Assembly: GCA_018221285.1 (NCBI GenBank)
Contig: JAAOYJ010000024.1
Span: forward strand, 13,156 to 77,155
Origin: Candidatus Pacearchaeota archaeon
Lineage (GTDB): Archaea; Nanobdellota; Nanobdellia; Pacearchaeales; GW2011-AR1
Direction: 5' to 3'
Length of the DNA: 64,000 nt
The position numbers and the translations under genes are program-made. Positions 3,193 to 61,796 of the stretch are shown piece after piece (the first letter of the stretch is position 1; each line of letters starts with the position of its first letter). The notes beneath the pieces were generated by a model. It was not told the DNA's origin. It was given only the letters and a program-made list of their open reading frames with translations, and searched no databases.

Positions 3193-3608
3193 AACCTTTT
3201 GAATATTATCTTAAAAATAAATTAGTAATGAAAGCCTCCCCAAATTTAGCTAGGGCAAGGTCTTTGATTAAAGATATAAATTTAAGATTGAAGTTCCTCA
3301 GGAAGATAGATATAAAGGAATTTCCTAAAATTTATTTTGAACATTTATATGATATTGTTCGGGATTTCTGCGACGCTATTTTATTTGCTGAAGGGTATAA
3401 GCCATCATCTCATCAGGCTTCAATTGCTTATTTGTCTAAAAAAGGATTTAATTTTACTTTAATTAAAAAGTTGGATTCATTTAGATACAAGCGAAATATT
3501 TCGAAATATCATGGAGAACCAATCTCATTGGAGGAGGCAAAGGATTTGGATAGGTTTTACAAAAGTATTAAAGATAGATTAAACAATCTTTTGAAAGATA
3601 TAAAATGA
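3189..3608 (+). CDS. HEPN domain protein (toxin-like partner of MNT)
   Basis: R-x5-H motif in RNISKYH near the C-terminus. About 140 aa and helical. ATGA overlap with the MNT gene. Confidence 0.6.
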   Translation: MKPFEYYLKNKLVMKASPNLARARSLIKDINLRLKFLRKIDIKEFPKIYFEHLYDIVRDFCDAILFAEGYKPSSHQASIAYLSKKGFNFTLIKKLDSFRYKRNISKYHGEPISLEEAKDLDRFYKSIKDRLNNLLKDIK

Positions 3609-3883
3609 CATCATTCTTATGGAAAAAGGTTTCTGAAAAAGAGAAAGAGGATATTCGTAAGCAGGCAAAGGGCATCATGGATGATTTTTCAGGTAAGCTT
3701 TCTAAAGTGAAGGGAGAGATGAAAGAGCCGTTGATTGAACGTGATGAGGGGGAACGTAAAGAGAGCGGAGAAGAATGTTGTGATGATTTTTCTAGAGAGA
3801 TTATGTTTAGGAATGCTCCTAATACCCTAAAGGGCACAAGTAAAAATGAAGATTTTATAATCGGGGAGCGGAAAGGATGGTAG
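3605..3883 (+). CDS. gatC: GatC-like subunit of Asp/Glu-tRNA amidotransferase (archaeal type)
   Basis: C-terminal ...FRNAP...EDFIIGERKGW resembles the GatC NAP...G-x-F-x-V-P tail. Lies in a chain of overlapping genes ending in gatA. Confidence 0.5.
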   Translation: MTSFLWKKVSEKEKEDIRKQAKGIMDDFSGKLSKVKGEMKEPLIERDEGERKESGEECCDDFSREIMFRNAPNTLKGTSKNEDFIIGERKGW

Positions 3884-4134
3884 ATAACGTATTAAATAGA
3901 ATGTATTTAGGACTTCCAATTAAAATGCAAAATTGCATATCTAATAATAGATTATCTCCTATCCAAATTTTATCTCAGAGGATTGCCCCTTTATTTGGAG
4001 GCCCTATTCCTACAAGATATACTTATGATGATTTTGAAGAAGTAAGGGATCAATGTAGTTTATTTAGTGAAGAAATTGAAATTGTTAAAATTAAATGTAG
4101 TGATTATCTAATAATGGCGATGGGATTAGGATGA
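3877..4134 (+). CDS. hypothetical protein (85 aa) wedged between gatC-like and gatA
   Basis: Start overlaps the gatC-like stop (ATGGTAG). Stop overlaps the gatA start (ATGA). Confidence 0.4.
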   Translation: MVDNVLNRMYLGLPIKMQNCISNNRLSPIQILSQRIAPLFGGPIPTRYTYDDFEEVRDQCSLFSEEIEIVKIKCSDYLIMAMGLG

Positions 4135-5507
4135 ACACACAACAAAAACTAAAAAAGTACCTTGCTGAGATTCAGAAGAATGATAAATCAGGCAAGAAGA
4201 TAAATGCAATCCTCCAACTCAACCCAAATACTTTAGCAGAAGCCAAAGCGATTGATGTTAAATCTAAGAAAGGAAAGTTGGCTGGCAAGATAATTGTTGT
4301 GAAGGCGAATATTAATGTTAAAGGTTTGAATGCTTCGTGTGCGTCGAGGGTTTTGGAGGATTATATTTCTCCTTATGATGCTACTGTGATTAAGAAGATT
4401 AAGGAAGAGGATGGATTGATTATTGGAATGGCGAATATGGATGAGTTTGCGTGTGGTTGGAGTGGGGAGACTTCTGCATATGGTCCTACGCGGAATCCTT
4501 GTGCCCCTGATTTAGTTGCAGGTGGAACGAGTTCTGGAAGTGCTGCTTCTGTTTCTGCAGGTTTTTGTGATATTGCTTTAGGGAGTGATACGGGAGGAAG
4601 TATAAGAGTTCCATCTTCTCATTGTGGAGTTGTAGGGATTAAGCCAACATATTCAAGTGTATCTCGTTATGGTTTGATTGATATGACTATGAGTTTTGAC
4701 CAAATTGGGCCTGCTGCAAAGAATGTTACAGACGCTGCTTTGTTGTTAAGTGTCATTTATGGAAGGGATGAATGTGATGCTATCTCGCAATCTCGCTCGA
4801 ATCCCGTGCCCTCCCGCCCGTCAGCGCCTTCGGCGCAGACAAAAGTTAGACTCGCGAAATCATCTAAGATAAACTTAGTGAATGTTCAAAAAACTCCTAA
4901 GAATCTTGTTGTTGGATTACTTGATTTTCCAGTGAATGATAAAAGGATTCAGAAATTGATTGATGATAAAGTTGAAAAGGCTTCGAAGAAGTATGGGTGG
5001 GAAATTAAGAAGATTAAAATTCCCTATCTTGAATTAAGTATTGCAACATATTTCCCAATTGTTTATGTGGAATTTTTCTCTGCTACAAGAAGATTTGATG
5101 GTAGAAGATATGGTAAGAAGATTGAAGATGCTGCGGGACCAGAGGTTTTGAGAAGGATTTTGGGAGGAAGCGAGATTTCAAAGGCAGAGCATCATGGAAG
5201 ATATTATAATAAGGCCTTGAAGGTTAGAAAGTTGATTAGTGAAGAATTTGCCAAAATGTTTAAGTCAGTAAATTGTATTATCTCGCCGACTGTTCCGCGT
5301 TTGCCCCATGAGATTGGTAGCAAAATTTCTAATGAGGATATGTACTCTTATGATGCTTTGACCCTCCCTTATAATTTGTATGGAAATTGTGCGATTTCAA
5401 TTCCTTGTGGGGAGATTGAAGGGATTCCTGTTGGAATGCAAATTGCTTGTGATAAGTTTGAGGATGAAAAGATGTTGGGGATTGCGAGGGCGATTGAGAA
5501 GATTTAG
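4131..5507 (+). CDS. gatA: Glu-tRNA(Gln)/Asp-tRNA(Asn) amidotransferase subunit A (amidase family)
   Basis: Amidase signature GGTSSGSAASVSAGFCDIALGSDTGGSIRVPSSHCGVVGIKPTYSSVSRYGLI. Confidence 0.9.
   Translation: MNTQQKLKKYLAEIQKNDKSGKKINAILQLNPNTLAEAKAIDVKSKKGKLAGKIIVVKANINVKGLNASCASRVLEDYISPYDATVIKKIKEEDGLIIGMANMDEFACGWSGETSAYGPTRNPCAPDLVAGGTSSGSAASVSAGFCDIALGSDTGGSIRVPSSHCGVVGIKPTYSSVSRYGLIDMTMSFDQIGPAAKNVTDAALLLSVIYGRDECDAISQSRSNPVPSRPSAPSAQTKVRLAKSSKINLVNVQKTPKNLVVGLLDFPVNDKRIQKLIDDKVEKASKKYGWEIKKIKIPYLELSIATYFPIVYVEFFSATRRFDGRRYGKKIEDAAGPEVLRRILGGSEISKAEHHGRYYNKALKVRKLISEEFAKMFKSVNCIISPTVPRLPHEIGSKISNEDMYSYDALTLPYNLYGNCAISIPCGEIEGIPVGMQIACDKFEDEKMLGIARAIEKI
4782..4857 (+). repeat. GC-rich repeat-like insertion, in frame inside gatA
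   Basis: A visibly GC-rich island in an AT-rich gene. It contains the CTCGC, TCGAATCC and TCCCGCCC words and a GCGCC-TTC-GGCGC hairpin, all shared with the intergenic repeat family. It encodes the P/S/A-rich linker SQSRSNPVPSRPSAPSAQTKVRLA. Confidence 0.45.
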
Positions 5508-5639
5508 CTCGCTGACGCGAGGATTGGTGAGAGTTATTAATGATTTAGCTTTATCCCACCCACCCGTGGGAGGAAGTAGTTAATAAAAAAGAACTTAATA
5601 TGTTGAGCAACTTAGCTGGTTTTTTGTTAATAGTTTTTT
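5508..5639 (+). repeat. mosaic intergenic repeat, copy A
   Basis: CTCGC-TGAC-GCGAG hairpin, AGAGTTATTAATGATTTAGC, CCCAC-CCACCC-GTGGG hairpin, core GAAGTAGTTAAT..AAGAACTTAATATGTTGAGCAACTTAG, tail TTTTTTGTTAATAGTTTTTT. Confidence 0.8.
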
Positions 5640-5713
5640 AATCATGAGCACATTGTGCGAATCTATTTTCCCATCACAACAATCTTTAAATTCTGTATCT
5701 TACTTTTCTCTTC

Positions 5714-7083: not shown

Positions 7084-7767
7084 ATGAAACTTAATGATGT
7101 TGAGATAAAGTGGTTAGGGCATGCTGGTTTTTTGATAAGGAATTCTTCTGTAATTTATATTGATCCTTATAAAATTGGTGATGGGTCTGAGAAGGCTGAT
7201 TTGATTTTGATAACACATAGTCATTATGATCATTGTAGTGTTGCTGATATGGAGAAGATTATCAAAGAGGGCACGCGGATTGTTATGACTGCTGATTGTC
7301 AGAGTAAGATTACGCGGTTTGATGTGCCGATTAGGATGGAGATAATTGAGCCTGGACAGGATTTGGAGTTTGGAGATGTGAAGATCTCTGCTTTGCCCGC
7401 GTATAATTTAGATAAACCTTTTCATTCTCAAGATGAGCATTGGGTTGGTTATTTAATTAAGATTGGAGAGGTTCTTATTTATCATGCAGGAGATACTGAT
7501 GTGATTCCTGAGATGCAGAAGTTGACAGGGCATAAGCAAGAAGGAAAGGAGTTTGTGGCGTTGCTTCCGATTGGAGGGAGATTTACAATGGATGTTGAGG
7601 AGGCTGTTGAAGCAGCGAAGATGATTAAGCCGACATTGGCAATTCCAATGCATTATGGAGATATTGTGGGAACAGAAGATGATGCTAAAGAGTTTTGTGA
7701 GATGTGTGGGGAAGAGGGTGTGAAGGCTAGGATGTTGGATGCCCTAAAGGGCACGAGGAAAGAATGA
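7084..7767 (+). CDS. MBL-fold metallo-hydrolase
   Basis: LITHSHYDH (H-x-H-x-D-H) plus downstream HAGDTD and PMHYG. ATG at 7084 preferred over TTG at 7081. Confidence 0.75.
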   Translation: MKLNDVEIKWLGHAGFLIRNSSVIYIDPYKIGDGSEKADLILITHSHYDHCSVADMEKIIKEGTRIVMTADCQSKITRFDVPIRMEIIEPGQDLEFGDVKISALPAYNLDKPFHSQDEHWVGYLIKIGEVLIYHAGDTDVIPEMQKLTGHKQEGKEFVALLPIGGRFTMDVEEAVEAAKMIKPTLAIPMHYGDIVGTEDDAKEFCEMCGEEGVKARMLDALKGTRKE

Positions 7768-9048: not shown

Positions 9049-10128
9049 ATGGTGTTAGATTTTGCAAAAGAAGCGATACAAAAAACAGAGAGCCACAGTA
9101 TTAACTTTGACGAGTTAAGAGCAGGGAAAGCCAACATTAAAGTTATTGGTGTTGGAGGATGTGGGAATAATATGGCGACATGGCTTTTTAATAAAGGAAT
9201 TATGGGGGCTACAATCTATGCAGCGAATACGGATGCACTTCACCTGAGTGTTACAAAAGCTGATGAGAAAATTCTTATTGGAAAGGAATTGACTAAAGGA
9301 TTGGGTGCTGGTGGACGACCAATGACTGGAAAGGAAGCTGCTAAGGAGGCTCTTGTAGATCTTAAGAAAGCTATTTCAGGAGCAGATATGATATTTGTTC
9401 TGGCTGGAATGGGTGGTGGAACAGGAACTGGAGCAGCACCTGTAGTGGCACAACTCGCAAAAGAGACTGGTGCGGTAGTAATTAGTGTTGTTACAATGCC
9501 TTTTGAAGCAGAGAAAGCTAGAATCGATAAAGCTGAATTTGGCTTGCAGGAACTTAGAGATGTGACTGATACATGTATTGTCCTTGATAATAACAGACTT
9601 GTTGATATTGCTGGGCAACTTCCGATTGAACAGGCTTTTGCTGTTGCGAACGAGTTGGTTAGTACAATGGTTAAAGGAATTGTAGAGACAATTACACTTC
9701 CGAGTTTGATTAACTTGGATTATGCAGATGTTTCTTCGATTATGAAGAACGGAGATGTAGCTGTGATTGGAATTGGTGAATCGAATACACAAGATCGTGT
9801 GAATGATGCTGTTCAGCAGGCCCTTACTCATCCTCTACTTGATGTGGATTATAAAGGTGCTACTGGAGCTTTGATTCATATAACTTGCGGCCCTGATTTG
9901 AAGTTAGAAGAGTTTGATGTAATTGGTCGGTCGGTTTCAGAGAATTTAAATCCAGAAGCGAATGTTATTATTGGAGCGAGAATCAGTAAGGATTTTATTG
10001 GGAAGGTTCGAGTGATTACAATAATGACTGGAGTTAAGTCTCCTTATGTAATGGGTAAGAGTATGGATGATCACACTTTACCTGTGTCCAGGGAGATGTC
10101 TGATTTAGGAATTGAGGTCTTGAGATAA
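9049..10128 (+). CDS. ftsZ: cell division protein FtsZ
   Basis: GVGGCGNNM and the tubulin signature GGGTGTGAAPVVA. Strong GGAGGT Shine-Dalgarno sequence upstream of the ATG. Confidence 0.95.
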   Translation: MVLDFAKEAIQKTESHSINFDELRAGKANIKVIGVGGCGNNMATWLFNKGIMGATIYAANTDALHLSVTKADEKILIGKELTKGLGAGGRPMTGKEAAKEALVDLKKAISGADMIFVLAGMGGGTGTGAAPVVAQLAKETGAVVISVVTMPFEAEKARIDKAEFGLQELRDVTDTCIVLDNNRLVDIAGQLPIEQAFAVANELVSTMVKGIVETITLPSLINLDYADVSSIMKNGDVAVIGIGESNTQDRVNDAVQQALTHPLLDVDYKGATGALIHITCGPDLKLEEFDVIGRSVSENLNPEANVIIGARISKDFIGKVRVITIMTGVKSPYVMGKSMDDHTLPVSREMSDLGIEVLR

Positions 10129-10201: not shown

Positions 10202-10876
10202 TCAAGTCGTTAGAAATAAACCATATAATAAACCCATTAGAAAAGGGATTATTATTAATGTTAAAATAATTACTGTGAGGCAAGCCCATGGGCCAACTCT
10301 TTTTTCGTTTTCCCTGTCGTCTATTATTCTATTTATTTCGTATTGTAAATAAAGAAAGTTAAATATTAGAGTAAAAAACCAAGAAGCTTTTCTTGTGCCC
10401 CCTTTATTTGTCATAGTTTGATTTAAGATTGTTCTTGTATTGAAAGCGAGTTTAAGGGACAAGTAAATTAATAAGATTGTAAATATAAACCCTATTGAGA
10501 GAAGGATTAGGCCTAAAGTAGTTTCTAAAAAGACATTAATTTTATCTTTAAAGAATAGATTAGCAATTTGGAGGATTATAATAATTATCATAAATATCAA
10601 ATAAGTTATCGCTGCTCCTTTACTTAATTTTTTTTGAGTTTTTAAATTATCAAATTCTGGTTTTCTTTTAATATACCAAATTGCAGGATAAATCCCAAGA
10701 GTTATAATGCTTAGAAACCAGAGCCAAACTACGCTCTTTTTCTGGGGAACTTTTGGACCTGGTTGAGTTTCTGTTTGGACCTTTTTTGTTTGCGGCACTT
10801 TTTTTAGAGGTTGTTGATTTGGAGGGGTTGTTTGAATCACCTTTTTTTTCACAACTTTTTTAATTTGATTATTCAT
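10202..10876 (-). CDS. multi-pass membrane protein (DUF4234-like motif)
   Basis: K/P/Q-rich N-terminus, then TM helices. LGIYPAIWYIKRK resembles DUF4234. Confidence 0.45.
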   Translation of the reverse strand: MNNQIKKVVKKKVIQTTPPNQQPLKKVPQTKKVQTETQPGPKVPQKKSVVWLWFLSIITLGIYPAIWYIKRKPEFDNLKTQKKLSKGAAITYLIFMIIIIILQIANLFFKDKINVFLETTLGLILLSIGFIFTILLIYLSLKLAFNTRTILNQTMTNKGGTRKASWFFTLIFNFLYLQYEINRIIDDRENEKRVGPWACLTVIILTLIIIPFLMGLLYGLFLTT

Positions 10877-12209: not shown

Positions 12210-12324
12210 GTCCTGGTAGCTCAGTTGGTAGAGCGATCGGCTGTTAAGTACCATCAAGATGGTTCATTCCGTATCTTGAGATACAGAAACCGATAGGTCG
12301 TAGGTTCGAGTCCTACCTGGGACG
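12210..12324 (+). tRNA. tRNA-Asn (GTT) with an intron of about 41 nt in the anticodon loop
   Basis: Manual fold: acceptor GTCCTGG/CTGGGAC, D-arm GCTC-AGTTGGTA-GAGC, anticodon stem ATCGG/CCGAT, loop CTGTTAA, T-arm GTAGG-TTCGAGT-CCTAC. A T6 run follows. No encoded CCA. Confidence 0.85.
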
Positions 12325-13269: not shown

Positions 13270-13716
13270 ATGGAGAAAGAAAATAAATACTTAGCGAATG
13301 AAAGAATATTAATTGTAGATGATATTGAAGAGTGGTTAGAGATTACTAAGAATAATGCAGTGCATTATGGGGCACAAGATATTATTAATGCCAAAAATGT
13401 TAAGGATGGAGAAAGATTGTATTGTGAAGTTAGTCCAACAATCGTCTTTGCAGACATCAATTTTGATAAGAAAGATTTGGCAAATCAAGAAGGGTTGTCT
13501 TTGATTGAGAAAATATCCGAATCAAGATCAGAAGATTTGATTGCATTAGTTGCTATGTCTTCTTTACAAGCTATAGAAGATGCAACCAAAAAGACAGGAG
13601 CAGATTATTTCATAAATAAAAAATCATTTATGGAAGATTTTGATGGATTTATTGAGACTTATTTTCCAAATAATAATGATAGAACTACTCAAGAAAACAT
13701 ATCTCTTGAAGCCTGA
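13270..13716 (+). CDS. stand-alone response regulator receiver (CheY-like)
   Basis: ILIVDD, the phospho-acceptor-like FADINF, VAMSS and a conserved K (INKK) in canonical order. ATG 13270 preferred over the upstream alternative start. Confidence 0.7.
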   Translation: MEKENKYLANERILIVDDIEEWLEITKNNAVHYGAQDIINAKNVKDGERLYCEVSPTIVFADINFDKKDLANQEGLSLIEKISESRSEDLIALVAMSSLQAIEDATKKTGADYFINKKSFMEDFDGFIETYFPNNNDRTTQENISLEA

Positions 13717-16437: not shown

Positions 16438-16481
16438 TCTATAAAAAAGAAAAAAAAGAGCTTTAAAAAATTAATTAAAAT

Positions 16482-16673
16482 CTAAAAAGATTTTTTAGCG
16501 CCGTCTGCGATTGCTTTTTCTGCGTTGTCTTTAGACATCATTGCACACATCTTACATCCGCAAGCTGTACAAATTCCTTTCGCCATAAATCCGCCTTTTG
16601 CAGTCTGACAAATTTCTGGATCTTTCATCTCTTGTCCTTTTTTCTTACACTTAACACAATATCCTGTTACCAT
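16482..16673 (-). CDS. small zinc-ribbon protein (DUF5679-like)
   Basis: YCVKCKKKGQEMKDPE...KGICTACGCKM gives two CxxC pairs. Confidence 0.5.
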   Translation of the reverse strand: MVTGYCVKCKKKGQEMKDPEICQTAKGGFMAKGICTACGCKMCAMMSKDNAEKAIADGAKKSF

Positions 16674-22836: not shown

Positions 22837-22950
22837 GTTCGCTCCGCTCACGATGGGTGGCTTCGAATCCTCCTTCGGCAGGATTCTTCGCTGAGAGGTT
22901 GTTAATGAGTTAGCTTCGCATAGTGTGTTGAGAAACTATTATTGTTATTA
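22837..22950 (+). repeat. mosaic intergenic repeat, copy E
   Basis: GGCTTCGAATCCT-loop-AGGATTCTTCGC hairpin + TGAGAGGTTGTTAATGAGTTAGCTTCGCATAGTGTGTTGAGAAACTA. Confidence 0.8.
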
Positions 22951-24715: not shown

Positions 24716-24815
24716 AGGGTATTGCGCGAAACAAGTTCGCGATATTGATGGCTTCGCGTCGGACTTTGTCACGACGCTTCGCAGAGAGAAGTAGTTAATT
24801 GAATAGCTTGTTTAG
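24716..24815 (+). repeat. mosaic intergenic repeat, copy F (degenerate core)
   Basis: CGCGAA-ACAAG-TTCGCG hairpin, ATGGCTTCGC + GCGTCG-GACTTTGTCA-CGACGC hairpin + GCTTCGCAGAGAGAAGTAGTTAATTGAATAGCTTG. Confidence 0.7.
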
Positions 24816-26296: not shown

Positions 26297-26392
26297 CCCT
26301 ACTCGCGACTTCGCACGAGTCATGGAATGAGGGATTACTCTCTACCACGAAGTCGCTCTCCCACCCTTGCCCGTGGGGAGAGGGTTGTTAAA
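26297..26392 (+). repeat. mosaic intergenic repeat, copy G (truncated core)
   Basis: ACTCGCGACTTCGCACGAGT...CTCTCTACCACGAAGTCGCT (same module as copy B) + CTCCCACCC..GTGGGGAG hairpin + GGTTGTTAAAT. The TTA of GTTGTTAA is the stop codon of the minus-strand gene 26388..26756. Confidence 0.75.
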
Positions 26393-30988: not shown

Positions 30989-31098
30989 GAGCCTGTAGCT
31001 CAGCCTGGTTAGAGCACTACTCTGATAATGGCCTAATCTTTAATTAGAATTGGGTATTGGTGAGGTAGGGGTCCACGGTTCAAATCCGTGCAGGCTCA
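30989..31098 (+). tRNA. tRNA-Ile (GAT) with an intron of about 36 nt in the anticodon loop
   Basis: Manual fold: acceptor GAGCCTG/CAGGCTC (perfect), D-arm GCTC-AGCCTGGTTA-GAGC, anticodon stem CTACT/GGTAG, loop CTGATAA, T-arm CACGG-TTCAAAT-CCGTG. Confidence 0.85.
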
Positions 31099-59300: not shown

Positions 59301-59416
59301 GGCTCTGTAGCTCAGCCTGGTCAGAGCACTAGACTCTTATGCACGACATGTCGTACGTTCTTTACGAGTGTCGCAAAGAAATCTAGGTGTCGGGGGTTCA
59401 AATCCCTCCAGGGCCA
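59301..59416 (+). tRNA. tRNA-Lys (CTT) with an intron of about 40 nt in the anticodon loop
   Basis: Manual fold: acceptor GGCTCTG/CAGGGCC (one G-U pair), D-arm GCTC-AGCCTGGTCA-GAGC, anticodon stem CTAGA/TCTAG, loop CTCTTAT, T-arm GGGGG-TTCAAAT-CCCTC. Confidence 0.8.
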
Positions 59417-60128: not shown

Positions 60129-60470
60129 ATGACTTTAAGGTTTTGTCACAAATGCAAAACTTTACAGAGACCCCGAAAAAAAGACGGGAAGATTATTTTT
60201 GATTGTTCTAAGTGTGGATTTTCTGAAGTTATTGACGAGAAAGATCATGTGATTACAAGTGAGAAAATGAAGAAGCCTGAGAAAAGAGGAAAGGGTTCTG
60301 TGGAGGATAAGGATGTGTTTGCAACGTATGAACATGTTTGTGAAAAGTGCGGGTATGATAAAGCAGAAGTAATAGATATGGGGATATTTTATTCAGATGA
60401 AGATAATTTGATTTTACTTAAATGTGGTAAGTGTGGTTGGTCTGAAAGGATTGGTCGGAAGGTATCTTAG
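60129..60470 (+). CDS. TFS/RpoM-like two-zinc-ribbon protein with a non-canonical acidic loop
   Basis: N-ribbon FCHKC...CSKCG. C-ribbon CEKCG...FYSDEDNLILLKCGKCGWSER, where canonical TFS has QTRSADE. Confidence 0.6.
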   Translation: MTLRFCHKCKTLQRPRKKDGKIIFDCSKCGFSEVIDEKDHVITSEKMKKPEKRGKGSVEDKDVFATYEHVCEKCGYDKAEVIDMGIFYSDEDNLILLKCGKCGWSERIGRKVS

Positions 60471-60566
60471 TCCCGCCCACCCACCCGTGGGGCGCTGACG
60501 CGCCAGTTGTTAATGAATTAGCTTCGCATAATCGTTTGAGTAACTTAACCTGTTTTTTGTTAATTA
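60471..60566 (+). repeat. mosaic intergenic repeat, copy K
   Basis: CCCAC-CCACCC-GTGGG hairpin, GGCGC-TGAC-GCGCC hairpin, AGTTGTTAATGAATTAGCTTCGCATAATCGTTTGAGTAACTTA, TTTTTTGTTAATTAC. Confidence 0.85.
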
Positions 60567-60598
60567 CTTTTTATTTCGAGCCTAAGGCGAGCAATTGT

Positions 60599-60907
60599 TT
60601 ATCTATATTCTCTCCAGGTGTGATTGCACTTTGTGCATTTGAAGAATTTAGTTTCTGCTTCGTCTCCTGCTCTTGTTTGAACAGTCCAGAAATAAGCATG
60701 TTTATTTTTGCACTTCTCGCAATCTTCCTTAACAATCGGTCTGACTTCAGAATCTTTTTCTTTTACCACAGTGATTTCTTTTTTATCATTAATCTTTTCG
60801 GAGATTATTACTTTTACTTTTTCTTTAGAAGAATAACTACATCGAGGGCATTTGCTTCCTTTCCCCCCTGACATCAAAATCGCACCGCACTTTGGACAAA
60901 ATTCCAT
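60599..60907 (-). CDS. tfs: transcription factor S (TFS)
   Basis: N-ribbon FCPKCG...CPRC. C-ribbon CEKC...WTVQTRAGDEAETKFFKCTKCNHTWRE with the canonical acidic hairpin. Confidence 0.85.
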   Translation of the reverse strand: MEFCPKCGAILMSGGKGSKCPRCSYSSKEKVKVIISEKINDKKEITVVKEKDSEVRPIVKEDCEKCKNKHAYFWTVQTRAGDEAETKFFKCTKCNHTWREYR

Positions 60908-60974
60908 ATTAAGATTAACACCTCATAAGCTAGGTACTTTTGTTCAGGTTGGTTTAAAAAGTTTTGGTTTATAT

Positions 60975-61080
60975 TGCTCGCTTCGCTCGGGATGAATGGC
61001 TCCGCGCCAGACTTTGTCGAGGCGCTTCACGAGAAGAAGTTGTTAATGGGATAGCTTCGCATAATCTGTTGAGTAACTTA
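60975..61080 (+). repeat. mosaic intergenic repeat, copy L
   Basis: CTCGCTTCGCTCGG, ATGGCTCCGC + GCGCC-AGACTTTGTCGA-GGCGC hairpin + CTTCACGAGAAGAAGTTGTTAATGGGATAGCTTCGCATAATCTGTTGAGTAACTTA. Confidence 0.85.
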
Positions 61081-61085
61081 ATCTA

Positions 61086-61796
61086 CTATTTCCTACAAAC
61101 AATCGTTATATCTTTAGGCAACCCAATTCTGTACTTGAAATAAGGAATCTTTTTTACTAATGATGGAGATGGTCTTGGTTCCTTAAGAGAGGTTATTACA
61201 AATCCTGCTTTTGTTAGAGAATCAAAATAGTCTTCGAAAGTCCAATGATAATCTTTAAAACTGATTAATGAACCGTCTACTTGTTTTGCATATGCAATCA
61301 TTTTTGCACCACTCATAAAGTAATGGAATCCCTTCGGTAGTTTGAATCTAGCATGGGTGATTGGATCAAAAGGGTGCATATCGCTAATAAATAATCTGCC
61401 ACCTTTTTTAAGAATCCGATAAGCCTCTTGAAACAATTTATTAATCTTAGTTTTAGATGGAATCTCTAGTAAGGCATAGATGATTACTGCGATGTCATAT
61501 CTGTTTGATTTTATTTTTTTAAGGTTTGTAAAGTCCCCTTTAAGATATTTGATTCCAAGAGATTTTCTTCCCTCTTCCTTTCTTGCAAGAGCCAATTGAT
61601 TTTCAGAGATATCTACTCCTGTGCAATCCGCCCCTCTTTGTGCAAAAAGTCTTGTCCAATATCCGCTACCACATCCGATATCAACCAATCTCTTTCCTTT
61701 TAAATTTCCAAGTTCTTTTAATGTATGTGGTTTTCTCAAGAATTCTTTACTATGCTCCGCTTTTGTGAATTTTTTACTATGTTTCTTTGTCCACAT
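61086..61796 (-). CDS. class I SAM-dependent methyltransferase
   Basis: Motif I LVDIGCGSGYW, followed by the post-I D (GVDISE). Confidence 0.8.
   Translation of the reverse strand: MWTKKHSKKFTKAEHSKEFLRKPHTLKELGNLKGKRLVDIGCGSGYWTRLFAQRGADCTGVDISENQLALARKEEGRKSLGIKYLKGDFTNLKKIKSNRYDIAVIIYALLEIPSKTKINKLFQEAYRILKKGGRLFISDMHPFDPITHARFKLPKGFHYFMSGAKMIAYAKQVDGSLISFKDYHWTFEDYFDSLTKAGFVITSLKEPRPSPSLVKKIPYFKYRIGLPKDITIVCRK

What the first reader, a model, noticed from the sequence alone, without database searches (positions are those of the whole stretch)
4782..4857. Repeat-like GC-rich segment inserted in frame inside gatA
Inside the otherwise AT-rich gatA there is a stretch of about 75 nt that is visibly GC-rich: TCTCGCAATCTCGCTCGAATCCCGTGCCCTCCCGCCCGTCAGCGCCTTCGGCGCAGAC...GACTCGCG. 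It uses the same vocabulary as the intergenic repeat modules: CTCGC words, TCGAATCC as in copy E, TCCCGCCC as in copy K, and a GCGCC/GGCGC hairpin as in copy L. It stays in frame and encodes the low-complexity linker SQSRSNPVPSRPSAPSAQTKVRLA. It lies in the variable region between the conserved GRDxxD segment and the hydrophobic VVGLL segment, which is noticeably longer here than in the GatA sequences I recall. This resembles Rickettsia palindromic elements, which insert in frame into coding genes.
Basis: partly seen in the sequence, partly recalled or inferred. Interest (0 to 1): 0.65.

Follow-up and report, generated by a model that had tools for sequence, protein, structure and literature searches.

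The report
GC-rich mini-element inserted in gatA
A 66-base GC-rich piece of repeat-like DNA sits in frame inside an essential gene of a tiny AT-rich archaeon; relatives carry clearly mobile hairpin mini-elements at the same spot and in neighbouring genes, much like the in-frame selfish elements of Rickettsia and yeast mitochondria.

Summary
Window 4791-4856 (66 nt, 65% GC, the GC-richest 66-nt stretch of the 34% GC window) is an in-frame, lineage-specific insertion in gatA (4131-5507). It adds 22 residues (SRSNPVPSRPSAPSAQTKVRLA) that AlphaFold2 models as the protein's only long low-confidence loop. In a 120-homolog alignment (119 homologs plus the window's own GatA), 97 have a 3-4 aa linker here. 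This linker is a repeated landing site in Pacearchaeota. Several relatives carry a 51-54 nt double-hairpin element ("family A"). Its stems covary, and it also sits in frame in at least five other gene families. It is present or absent between GatAs that are 92% identical. Another relative (L165) carries, at the same codon as the window, an insert that matches the window's own intergenic repeat module at 60471-60513 (z=14). The window's insert itself is single-copy. It resembles those modules only moderately (P about 0.01), and a leave-one-out profile hit is not significant (E=27). No inverted termini, target duplication, transposase, BHB intron or Rfam family was found. Best reading: a translated, tolerated insertion of a GC-rich hairpin mini-element, an archaeal counterpart of Rickettsia palindromic elements and yeast mitochondrial GC clusters. 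I found no earlier description for DPANN archaea.

The parts
4131..5507 (+). gatA (Asp/Glu-tRNA amidotransferase subunit A), 458 aa, host gene
   Evidence: ORF. PF01425 homologs named GatA from Pacearchaeota/Nanoarchaeota. PDB GatA matches at 1e-88.
4791..4856 (+). The inserted segment: 66 nt, 22 codons (SRSNPVPSRPSAPSAQTKVRLA), 65% GC
   Evidence: Absent from 97 of the 120 aligned GatAs and from most of the 164 related loci, whose linker is 9-12 nt. GC outlier. AF2 pLDDT below 50 for residues 222-244.
4783..4796 (+). TCTCGC-AA-TCTCGC direct repeat at the left junction (first copy native ISQ codons, second copy starts the insert). CTCGC recurs at 4851-4855.
   Evidence: Read from the sequence. 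The L165 insert starts at the same codon with TTCTCGC. Not a clean target-site duplication.
4791..4811 (+). 5' sub-module TCTCGCTCGAATCCCGTGCCC. It contains TCGAATCC (as at 22863). TCCCGTGCCCTC is the reverse complement (11 of 12) of the GAGGGCACGAGA module of relatives' inserts.
   Evidence: P about 0.02; weak.
4812..4819 (+). TCCCGCCC box, shared with the intergenic module at 60471 and with intergenic modules in L001 and L003
   Evidence: Pattern TCCCGCCC-N10-40-AGTTR: 2 hits in the window against 0.02 expected. In the loci it hits only L001, L003 and L026. The pattern was chosen post hoc.
4820..4840 (+). Local hairpin GTC-A-GCGCC-TTC-GGCGC-A-GAC (8 bp with one A.A mismatch)
   Evidence: It occupies the position of the GGCGC-TGAC-GCGCC / GCGCGC-TGAC-GCGCGC hairpins of 60491-60504 and of the L165 insert.
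4841..4856 (+). 3' tail AAAAGTTAGACTCGCG. AAGTTA aligns with the AGTTGTTAA / AAGTTAAAG end of the module copies.
4857..4868 (+). Native linker codons AAATCATCTAAG (KSSK), equivalent to ESKK/KSKI of uninserted orthologs
60471..60513 (+). Closest in-window relative: intergenic GC module TCCCGCCCACCCACCCGTGGGGCGCTGACGCGCCAGTTGTTAA, directly after a stop codon and upstream of a conserved repeat core
5505..5640 (+). Intergenic repeat unit directly downstream of the gatA stop codon (CTCGC-TGAC-GCGAG hairpin, CCCACCCACCCGTGGG hairpin, degenerate core)
26356..26392 (+). Intergenic module CCCACCCTTGCCCGTGGGGAGAGGGTTGTTAAA of the same family
3821..3841 (+). Second small in-frame extra segment in the neighbouring 92-aa ORF (3605-3883): AATACCCTAAAGGGCACAAG, encoding NTLKGTS
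   Evidence: Missing in 33 of 79 orthologous loci. It is 19 of 20 identical to part of the insert in the MBL-fold hydrolase gene of L019, and close to the NUDIX insert of L001.

Best explanation
The segment is a lineage-specific, in-frame insertion of a short GC-rich, hairpin-bearing repeat module into the codons for a surface linker of GatA. Such modules form a pool of small elements in this group of AT-rich DPANN archaea. They are modular and can merge or nest. In the window they mostly sit just downstream of genes. In relatives they have repeatedly landed in this same GatA linker and in loops of neighbouring genes. The copy in the window is translated as 22 extra Pro/Ser/Ala/Arg-rich residues that form a disordered loop. 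It persists because the loop tolerates extra length and the reading frame is kept. Shown: it is an insertion; it is compositionally foreign; the site is a repeated target; related elements are mobile and conserved at the level of nucleic-acid structure; the loop is modelled as disordered. Inferred: it derives from the same module family as the intergenic repeats (about 0.6); it is translated rather than removed; and the copying mechanism. For that mechanism I consider hairpin-dependent single-strand transposition, or gene conversion/template switching from another copy, the most likely, because there are no inverted termini, no target duplications and no nearby transposase.
For: Insertion and foreign composition. 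Disordered loop: pLDDT below 50 only for residues 222-244, with flanks above 90. Hot spot: 21 of the 120 aligned GatAs carry inserts of 10-42 aa at this linker, belonging to several unrelated sequence types. All nine distinct insert lengths seen at the DNA level are multiples of 3 and contain no stops. Mobility in relatives (family A, 51-54 nt): the L089 copies in gatA and in the MBL hydrolase gene differ at 1 of 52 nt. Copies also occur in GatB/E-like, NUDIX, TYW3 and the small ORF upstream of gatA, in at least two reading frames. Two stem pairs covary with no broken pairs, and folding z is -2.9 to -5.3. The element is present or absent between GatAs 92% identical (P0009/P0030, P0034/P0039), and a filled and an empty site are seen at 91% DNA identity. 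Carriers are scattered over the GatA tree. A 30-nt sub-module is nested at the same GTA|CCC point in gatA and MBL copies. Link to the window's intergenic repeats: the L165 gatA insert, at the same codon and starting with the same TCTCGC, matches window 60471-60513 (score 42, z=14.3, 0 of 1000 shuffles). The window insert against L165 and 60468 gives P 0.008-0.06, and the pooled score P 0.012. The TCCCGCCC...AGTTR architecture is found twice against 0.02 expected. K-mer sharing gives P 0.02-0.05.
Against: The window's insert has no second copy in the 64 kb window or in 1.9 Mb of related loci. The family A covariance model does not hit it or anything else in the window. The leave-one-out HMM of the intergenic-type modules gives only 2.5 bits, E=27. 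The insert as a whole does not fold better than shuffles. There are no terminal inverted repeats, no clean target-site duplication, and no transposase in the window. The inserts of the window and of its sister L001 do not align in the same orientation (P=0.5-0.6). Translation is inferred only from frame conservation.
Confidence: 0.68

Rival explanations
1. Ordinary hypervariable linker. The loop grew in place by replication slippage, small duplications and drift, with no mobile element involved. The resemblance to the intergenic repeats is compositional coincidence between GC-rich low-complexity strings.
For: The insert is single-copy. The profile hit is not significant. A TCTCGC word is duplicated at the left junction, and the middle contains CCCN-type low complexity. 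The similarity P values are only about 0.01-0.05 after several tests.
Against: Tandem Repeats Finder finds nothing. Slippage in a 38% GC gene with GC3 of 0.32 would not produce the GC-richest stretch of the window. The L165 insert at the same codon is plainly a copy of an intergenic module. Relatives show real mobile elements at this site.
Confidence: 0.15
2. A functional nucleic-acid element embedded in the gene. The hairpin(s) would be kept by selection because they act on the mRNA or DNA, for example as a binding site for a host factor, a translational pause, an RNA stability or processing signal, or a recombination signal. The peptide would be a by-product. This does not exclude a mobile origin.
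For: In family A the stems covary while the encoded residues change (S to F at a compensated pair) and the loops vary. The elements are far more conserved between genomes than the host genes. High GC is retained in a genome under AT pressure. Intergenic copies sit directly after stop codons.
Against: The window's insert has only one modest hairpin and no significant overall fold. No Rfam family matches. 97 of the 120 aligned GatAs do without any insert. Covariation is also expected for elements that need their hairpins for their own mobility.
Confidence: 0.1
3. An intervening sequence that is removed or skipped: an archaeal bulge-helix-bulge intron in the mRNA, or a translational bypass element like the byp elements of Magnusiomyces mitochondria.
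For: The window's tRNA genes carry introns, so the splicing endonuclease is present. GC clusters in one yeast mitochondrion are bypassed in translation (PMC8811140).
Against: All inserts at this site in all loci are multiples of 3 and free of stops, which removal would not require. My scan found no bulge-helix-bulge motif at the insert boundaries with more than 2-bp flanking helices, and the best candidate would delete the conserved DAISQ residues.
Confidence: 0.04
4. Assembly artefact: a chimeric join or misassembled GC-rich read inside gatA.
For: The source is a metagenome-derived contig and the insert is unique in sequence.
Against: The frame is kept and both flanks continue the same gene exactly. 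Analogous inserts occur at the same linker in independent assemblies from NCBI, JGI, ENA and Logan.
Confidence: 0.03

Closest known systems
Rickettsia palindromic elements (RPEs; Ogata et al. 2000, as reviewed in PMC10969869)
   Same: Short non-autonomous repeats in a small AT-rich genome. They occur in intergenic DNA and in frame inside unrelated housekeeping genes, add a peptide in positions compatible with the fold, and show no obvious transposase, inverted termini or target duplications.
   Different: Archaeal host. The elements are much shorter (51-66 nt against about 100-150 bp), strongly GC-rich, and modular, with sub-modules that nest. More than one reading frame is used. The window's copy is single and not palindromic overall. 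Sequence homology to RPE families was not tested.
Yeast mitochondrial GC clusters, including the in-frame clusters of var1 (PMC8811140, PMC4478555)
   Same: GC-rich hairpin elements of 30-60 nt in a very AT-rich genome. They are mostly intergenic and sometimes in frame in coding DNA. They show presence/absence polymorphism, stems conserved more than loops, and merging and shuffling of modules into new clusters.
   Different: Organelle against free-living or episymbiotic archaeon. AG/TAG terminal repeats are described there, and I could not establish terminal repeats here. Unidirectional gene conversion has been shown there by genetics, whereas nothing is known here.
Double-hairpin elements of fungal mitochondria (Paquin, Laforest and Lang 2000, cited in PMC4478555; recalled from memory beyond the citation)
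   Same: Family A in the relatives is a two-hairpin GC-rich unit that inserts into genes as well as spacers.
   Different: Different hosts and sequences. The window's insert shows only one hairpin.
REP/BIME elements and MITEs of prokaryotes (PMC3733652, PMC10969869)
   Same: Short repeated hairpins, often just downstream of genes, like the window's intergenic modules.
   Different: No GTAG/CGTC tag, no RAYT gene, no terminal inverted repeats and no target duplications were seen. REPs are by definition extragenic.

Membership tests
Rickettsia palindromic element-like in-frame repeat | Inserted in frame in a protein-coding gene, absent from orthologs | tested here: met
   66 nt, 22 codons, no stop; 97 of the 120 aligned GatAs and most related loci lack it.
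Rickettsia palindromic element-like in-frame repeat | Multiple copies of the same element in the genome (intergenic and genic) | tested here: inconclusive
   There is no second copy of the 66 nt in the 64 kb window. Related modules occur at 60471, 5505 and 26356, but similarity is only P about 0.01 and the profile gives E=27. Only 64 kb of the genome could be read. The feature is met for family A in relatives.
Rickettsia palindromic element-like in-frame repeat | Palindromic: the element folds into a stable hairpin | tested here: not met
   The whole insert gives z -0.3 to -0.8 against shuffles; only a local 8-bp hairpin at 4820-4840 is present. Family A in relatives meets the feature (z -2.9 to -5.3, with covariation).
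Rickettsia palindromic element-like in-frame repeat | Insertion point compatible with the protein fold (surface loop) | tested here: met
   In the AF2 model, residues 222-244 have pLDDT below 50 and are flanked by segments above 90. Contacts with GatB/GatC were not modelled.
Rickettsia palindromic element-like in-frame repeat | Sequence homology to a described RPE family | not tested
Homology is not expected, given the different domain of life and composition.
MITE | Terminal inverted repeats and target-site duplication | tested here: not met
   No inverted termini. The filled and empty sites of family A show no duplication. Only an imperfect CTCGC repeat flanks the window's insert.
REP / RAYT system | Extragenic palindromes with a conserved tag, plus a RAYT (Y1 transposase) gene flanked by them | tested here: not met
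   No Y1 transposase in the window or in 166 of the loci (tblastn). The one IS200-like gene, in L001, is flanked by its own unrelated CTCCAC hairpins.
Archaeal bulge-helix-bulge intron | hBHBh' motif placing both splice sites at the insert boundaries | tested here: not met
   My own scan found only 2-bp flanking helices, and the best candidate would remove conserved residues. Strict frame conservation argues against splicing.
Mitochondrial GC-cluster-like element | GC-rich hairpin module in an AT-rich genome, mostly intergenic, occasionally in frame in genes, with modular reshuffling | tested here: met
   This is a resemblance in behaviour, not common descent.
Known RNA families (Rfam 15) | Match to a curated covariance model | tested here: not met
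   Nothing above gathering score except three tRNAs. Only chance-level hits at 4700-4950 and 60400-61120.

The most novel reading that the evidence does not exclude
Pacearchaeota and related DPANN archaea harbour a previously undescribed system of very short (about 30-60 nt), modular, self-nesting GC-rich hairpin elements. These elements colonise protein-coding genes in frame at about one per 4-5 kb in some genomes. They are held under selection for nucleic-acid structure rather than for the peptide, spread between lineages, and share modules with the repeats that follow genes. The gatA insert of this window is one decayed or recombined member. Such elements could be selfish, or could act as host-used RNA/DNA signals and as a steady source of new surface loops in minimal proteomes.
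Probability: 0.5. Interest if true: 0.78.

Novelty: new variant of a known kind. Interest (0 to 1): 0.62.

Why it matters
In-frame selfish elements in housekeeping genes are known mainly from Rickettsia and from fungal mitochondria, and how they move is still unknown. Here the same behaviour appears in ultra-small archaeal genomes. Hundreds of metagenomic relatives offer natural filled and empty sites, nested intermediates and structure-preserving substitutions. That makes several questions tractable by comparative genomics and by simple biochemistry. What copies such elements? Are they targeted, or only filtered by selection? Do they create new protein loops? For annotation, it warns that GC-rich, Pro/Ser/Ala/Arg-rich low-complexity linkers in DPANN proteins may be element scars rather than functional domains.

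Tried and rejected
1. A fuzzy regex search for repeat cores timed out and was replaced by nhmmer.
2. blastn-short of the insert against the window and against 1.9 Mb of loci found nothing significant.
3. The family A covariance model found no copy in the window and does not hit the insert, so the insert is not a family A member.
4. The window's own contig could not be extended, because P0001 is not on record.
5. Peptide searches for the family A peptide failed: the query was too short, and then no shared words were found. One database search was lost this way.
6. Viral contigs. The family A pattern is absent. The 15-mer CCCGCCCACCCACCC gives 79 mostly unrelated hits. A few low-GC contigs (L206, L217, L237) show similar vocabulary, but this was not pursued.
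7. A Y1/IS200 transposase as mobiliser: only one copy, in L001, with unrelated hairpins.
8. BHB intron: no convincing motif.
9. Tandem duplication origin: Tandem Repeats Finder is negative.
10. tRNA-fragment origin of TCGAATCCCGTGC: no tRNA or other Rfam hit in 4700-4950, and the flanks do not form a T-arm.
11. The conserved core of the intergenic repeats has no consensus secondary structure.
12. A clean target-site duplication could not be defined for the window's insert, for L165 or for family A.

Full report
**The thing itself.** The window is 34% GC. By the names attached to its GatA homologs, it comes from a DPANN archaeon of the Pacearchaeota/Nanoarchaeota group. Its three tRNA genes carry introns. 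The ORF at 4131-5507 encodes a 458-aa GatA (PF01425; PDB GatA matches at 1e-88). Comparison with orthologs places the extra DNA at 4791-4856. It is 66 nt, or 22 codons (SRSNPVPSRPSAPSAQTKVRLA). It lies directly after the Gln codon of the conserved DAISQ motif and before four AT-rich codons (KSSK) that correspond to the normal 3-4 residue linker. It is the GC-richest 66-nt stretch of the window: 0.65 against a mean of 0.34 and sd of 0.069. Only the intergenic repeat near 60,4xx equals it. GC3 is 0.64 against 0.32 for the rest of gatA.

**It is an insertion, in a tolerant loop.**
- In the alignment of the 120 best homologs (which includes the window's own GatA), 97 have a 3-4 residue linker and 21 have 10-42 residues there.
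- In 164 related loci fetched from genome and metagenome collections, the linker DNA is mostly 9-12 nt.
- Bacterial GatA structures are about 23 residues shorter across this region.
- An AlphaFold2 model built on 68 homologs (mean pLDDT 85) has one long low-confidence segment, residues 222-244, which is the insert. It is flanked by segments above 90.

**The linker is a repeated landing site for mobile mini-elements.** Every insert seen at the DNA level at this site is a multiple of 3 and has no stops: 51, 63, 63, 78, 84, 90 and 126 nt, among others.

One group of inserts (L003, L089, L088, L002 and several database proteins) is a 51-54 nt element that I call family A: ACACCACAGGCGTACCCCGAwAAATCTTCnnnGAAGATTTyTACTAAGGGCAAr.
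- It folds into a small hairpin plus a long hairpin. Folding z is -2.9 to -5.3.
- Two stem pairs covary (AU/CG/GC and CG/UA) with no broken pairs. One compensated pair changes Ser to Phe in the peptide, so the constraint is on the nucleic acid.
- The same element sits in frame in other genes: an MBL-fold hydrolase, NUDIX, TYW3, a GatB/E-like gene and the small ORF upstream of gatA. At least two reading frames are used.
- In L089 the gatA and hydrolase copies differ at 1 of 52 nt.
- Carriers are scattered over the GatA tree.
- GatAs 92% identical differ by presence or absence. A filled and an empty site at 91% DNA identity show no target duplication.
- A 30-nt sub-module (GGGCACGAGAACCTC-loop-GAGG) is nested at the same GTA|CCC point in gatA and hydrolase copies.
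- The hydrolase loop shows a graded series of 18, 28, 35, 44 and 60 residues.

**How the window's insert relates to all this.** It is not family A. The covariance model finds nothing in the window. It has no second copy in the window or in 1.9 Mb of loci. It does not fold better than shuffles overall, and has only the hairpin GTC-A-GCGCC-TTC-GGCGC-A-GAC at 4820-4840.

The link to the intergenic repeats comes through a third genome. The L165 gatA insert begins at the same codon with the same TCTCGC. It reads TCTCGCCCACCCACCC-TAAGC-GCGCTGACGCGC-GCGCAGAAGTTAA. This matches the window's intergenic module at 60471-60513, TCCCGCCCACCCACCC-GTGGG-GCGCTGACGCGC-CAGTTGTTAA (score 42, z=14.3, 0 of 1000 shuffles). 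L165 in turn resembles the inserts of L001 (z=7) and L166 (z=4.5).

The window's insert has the same order of parts: TCCCGCCC, a GC hairpin, then AAGTTA. The statistics, however, are only moderate.
- Against dinucleotide shuffles, P is 0.057 (forward) and 0.01 (reverse) against L165.
- P is 0.015 (forward) and 0.008 (reverse) against 60468.
- The pooled top-five score has P=0.012.
- K-mer sharing with the intergenic modules has P 0.02-0.05.
- The post hoc pattern TCCCGCCC-N10-40-AGTTR hits exactly these two places in the window, against 0.02 expected. In the loci it hits only intergenic modules of the nearest relatives L001 and L003, plus L026.
- A leave-one-out HMM of seven module copies aligns colinearly to 4810-4847 but scores only 2.5 bits, E=27.

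The 5' third of the insert may be an inverted copy of the GGGCACGAGA module (11 of 12, P about 0.02). I therefore rate derivation from this module pool at about 0.6, not as proven.

**Mechanism.**
- Shown: the segment is an insertion, it is compositionally foreign, the loop is permissive, the frame is conserved, and related elements are mobile.
- Inferred: it is translated. The alternative of removal is unsupported. I found no credible BHB motif, no Rfam family, and strict multiples of 3.
- The copying mechanism is unknown. There are no inverted termini, no target duplications and no transposase in the window. The single IS200-like gene seen, in L001, has unrelated hairpins.
- Insertion points within the 12-nt linker differ between insert types: after Q in the window and L165, after N in L001, and between ES and KK for family A. 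This favours selection for a tolerant loop over strict site-specific integration.

**Comparison with what is known.**
- The behaviour matches Rickettsia palindromic elements (PMC10969869).
- It matches yeast mitochondrial GC clusters even more closely. Those include in-frame insertions in var1, stems conserved more than loops, merging and shuffling of modules, and a mainly intergenic location (PMC8811140, PMC4478555).
- It fails the tests for MITE, REP/RAYT and BHB intron.
- Four literature searches found no report of such elements in DPANN archaea. A fifth query, with 'Pacearchaeota', returned only unrelated MITE papers.

**Verdict.** I classify it as a new variant of a known kind, of clear interest to people who study mobile DNA and genome reduction.

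Noticed in passing
window 5575, 15144, 16797, 22899, 26385, 46248, 50401, 60507, 61040: An intergenic repeat with a conserved, unstructured core of about 42 nt (AGTwGTTAATGAATTAGCTTCGCATAATnnGTTGAGTAACT). It is often followed by TTTTTTGTTAATAG and preceded by variable GC-rich hairpin modules. All nine copies are on the + strand, whatever the orientation of the neighbouring genes. The core is seen elsewhere only in the nearest relatives L001 and L003.
   Followed up: partly
L003:4860-4913, L089:1298-1351 and 2323-2376, L004:13236-13289 and 16459-16512, L005:9127-9180, L105:4469-4521, 9650-9703 and 9985-10035, L002:8991-9045, 10749-10782 and 13573-13638: Family A: a 51-54 nt double-hairpin element inserted in frame in six gene families of related Pacearchaeota. 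It shows stem covariation and near-identical copies within one genome. Density reaches about one per 4-5 kb in L002, L004 and L105.
   Followed up: yes
L247:2897-3080 versus L248:5032-5160; L002:10690-10730: A 30-nt sub-module (CCAAGGAGGGACAAGAACCTCTTTGAGG / TACCCAAAGGGCACGAGAACCTCTACGAGG) is nested between GTA and CCC of an existing minimal element. The same point is used in the gatA copies and the MBL hydrolase copies.
   Followed up: partly
L004:10125-10156: The gatA of L004 carries a second small insert near its N-terminus (GCACCGCTCGGTGTACCCCAAAGTACTG). It resembles the start of the insert at the linker site.
   Followed up: no
window 24757-24777 and 61005-61025: Two intergenic hairpins with the same loop (GACTTTGTC) and different, compensating GC stems (GCGTCG/CGACGC and GCGCC/GGCGC). 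The pattern is found twice against 0.03 expected. The reverse complement of the gatA insert contains AACTTTTGTC.
   Followed up: partly
window 7741-7758 and 3829-3845: CCCTAAAGGGCAC(G/A)AG occurs in the C-terminal codons of the MBL hydrolase gene and in the small ORF upstream of gatA. The same words occur in the NUDIX insert of L001 and the hydrolase insert of L019.
   Followed up: partly
window 12210-12324, 30989-31098, 59301-59416: Three tRNA genes of 110-116 nt (intron-containing) are found by Rfam but missed entirely by ARAGORN.
   Followed up: no
L001:9620-10235: An IS200-like Y1 transposase gene (PF01797) flanked by its own hairpins (CTCCACTTT...AAGTGGAG and CTCCACAC...GTGTGGAG). It lies next to a tRNA gene and a CCCGCCCGCCC module.
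   Followed up: partly
L206, L217, L237 (IMG/VR contigs, 37% GC): Low-GC viral contigs carry CCCGCCCACCCACCC next to GCTCGCTTCGCTCG-type words and GC hairpins. The same vocabulary is seen in the window's intergenic modules (for example 60975-60990).
   Followed up: no
L164:861-962, L166:10655-10777, L167:1058-1168; proteins P0027, P0038, P0067, P0071, P0093, P0097: Further, different GC-rich insert types at the same GatA linker. One is a recurrent short xPNHPP type that is scattered over the tree. Their DNA was not examined for other copies.
   Followed up: no
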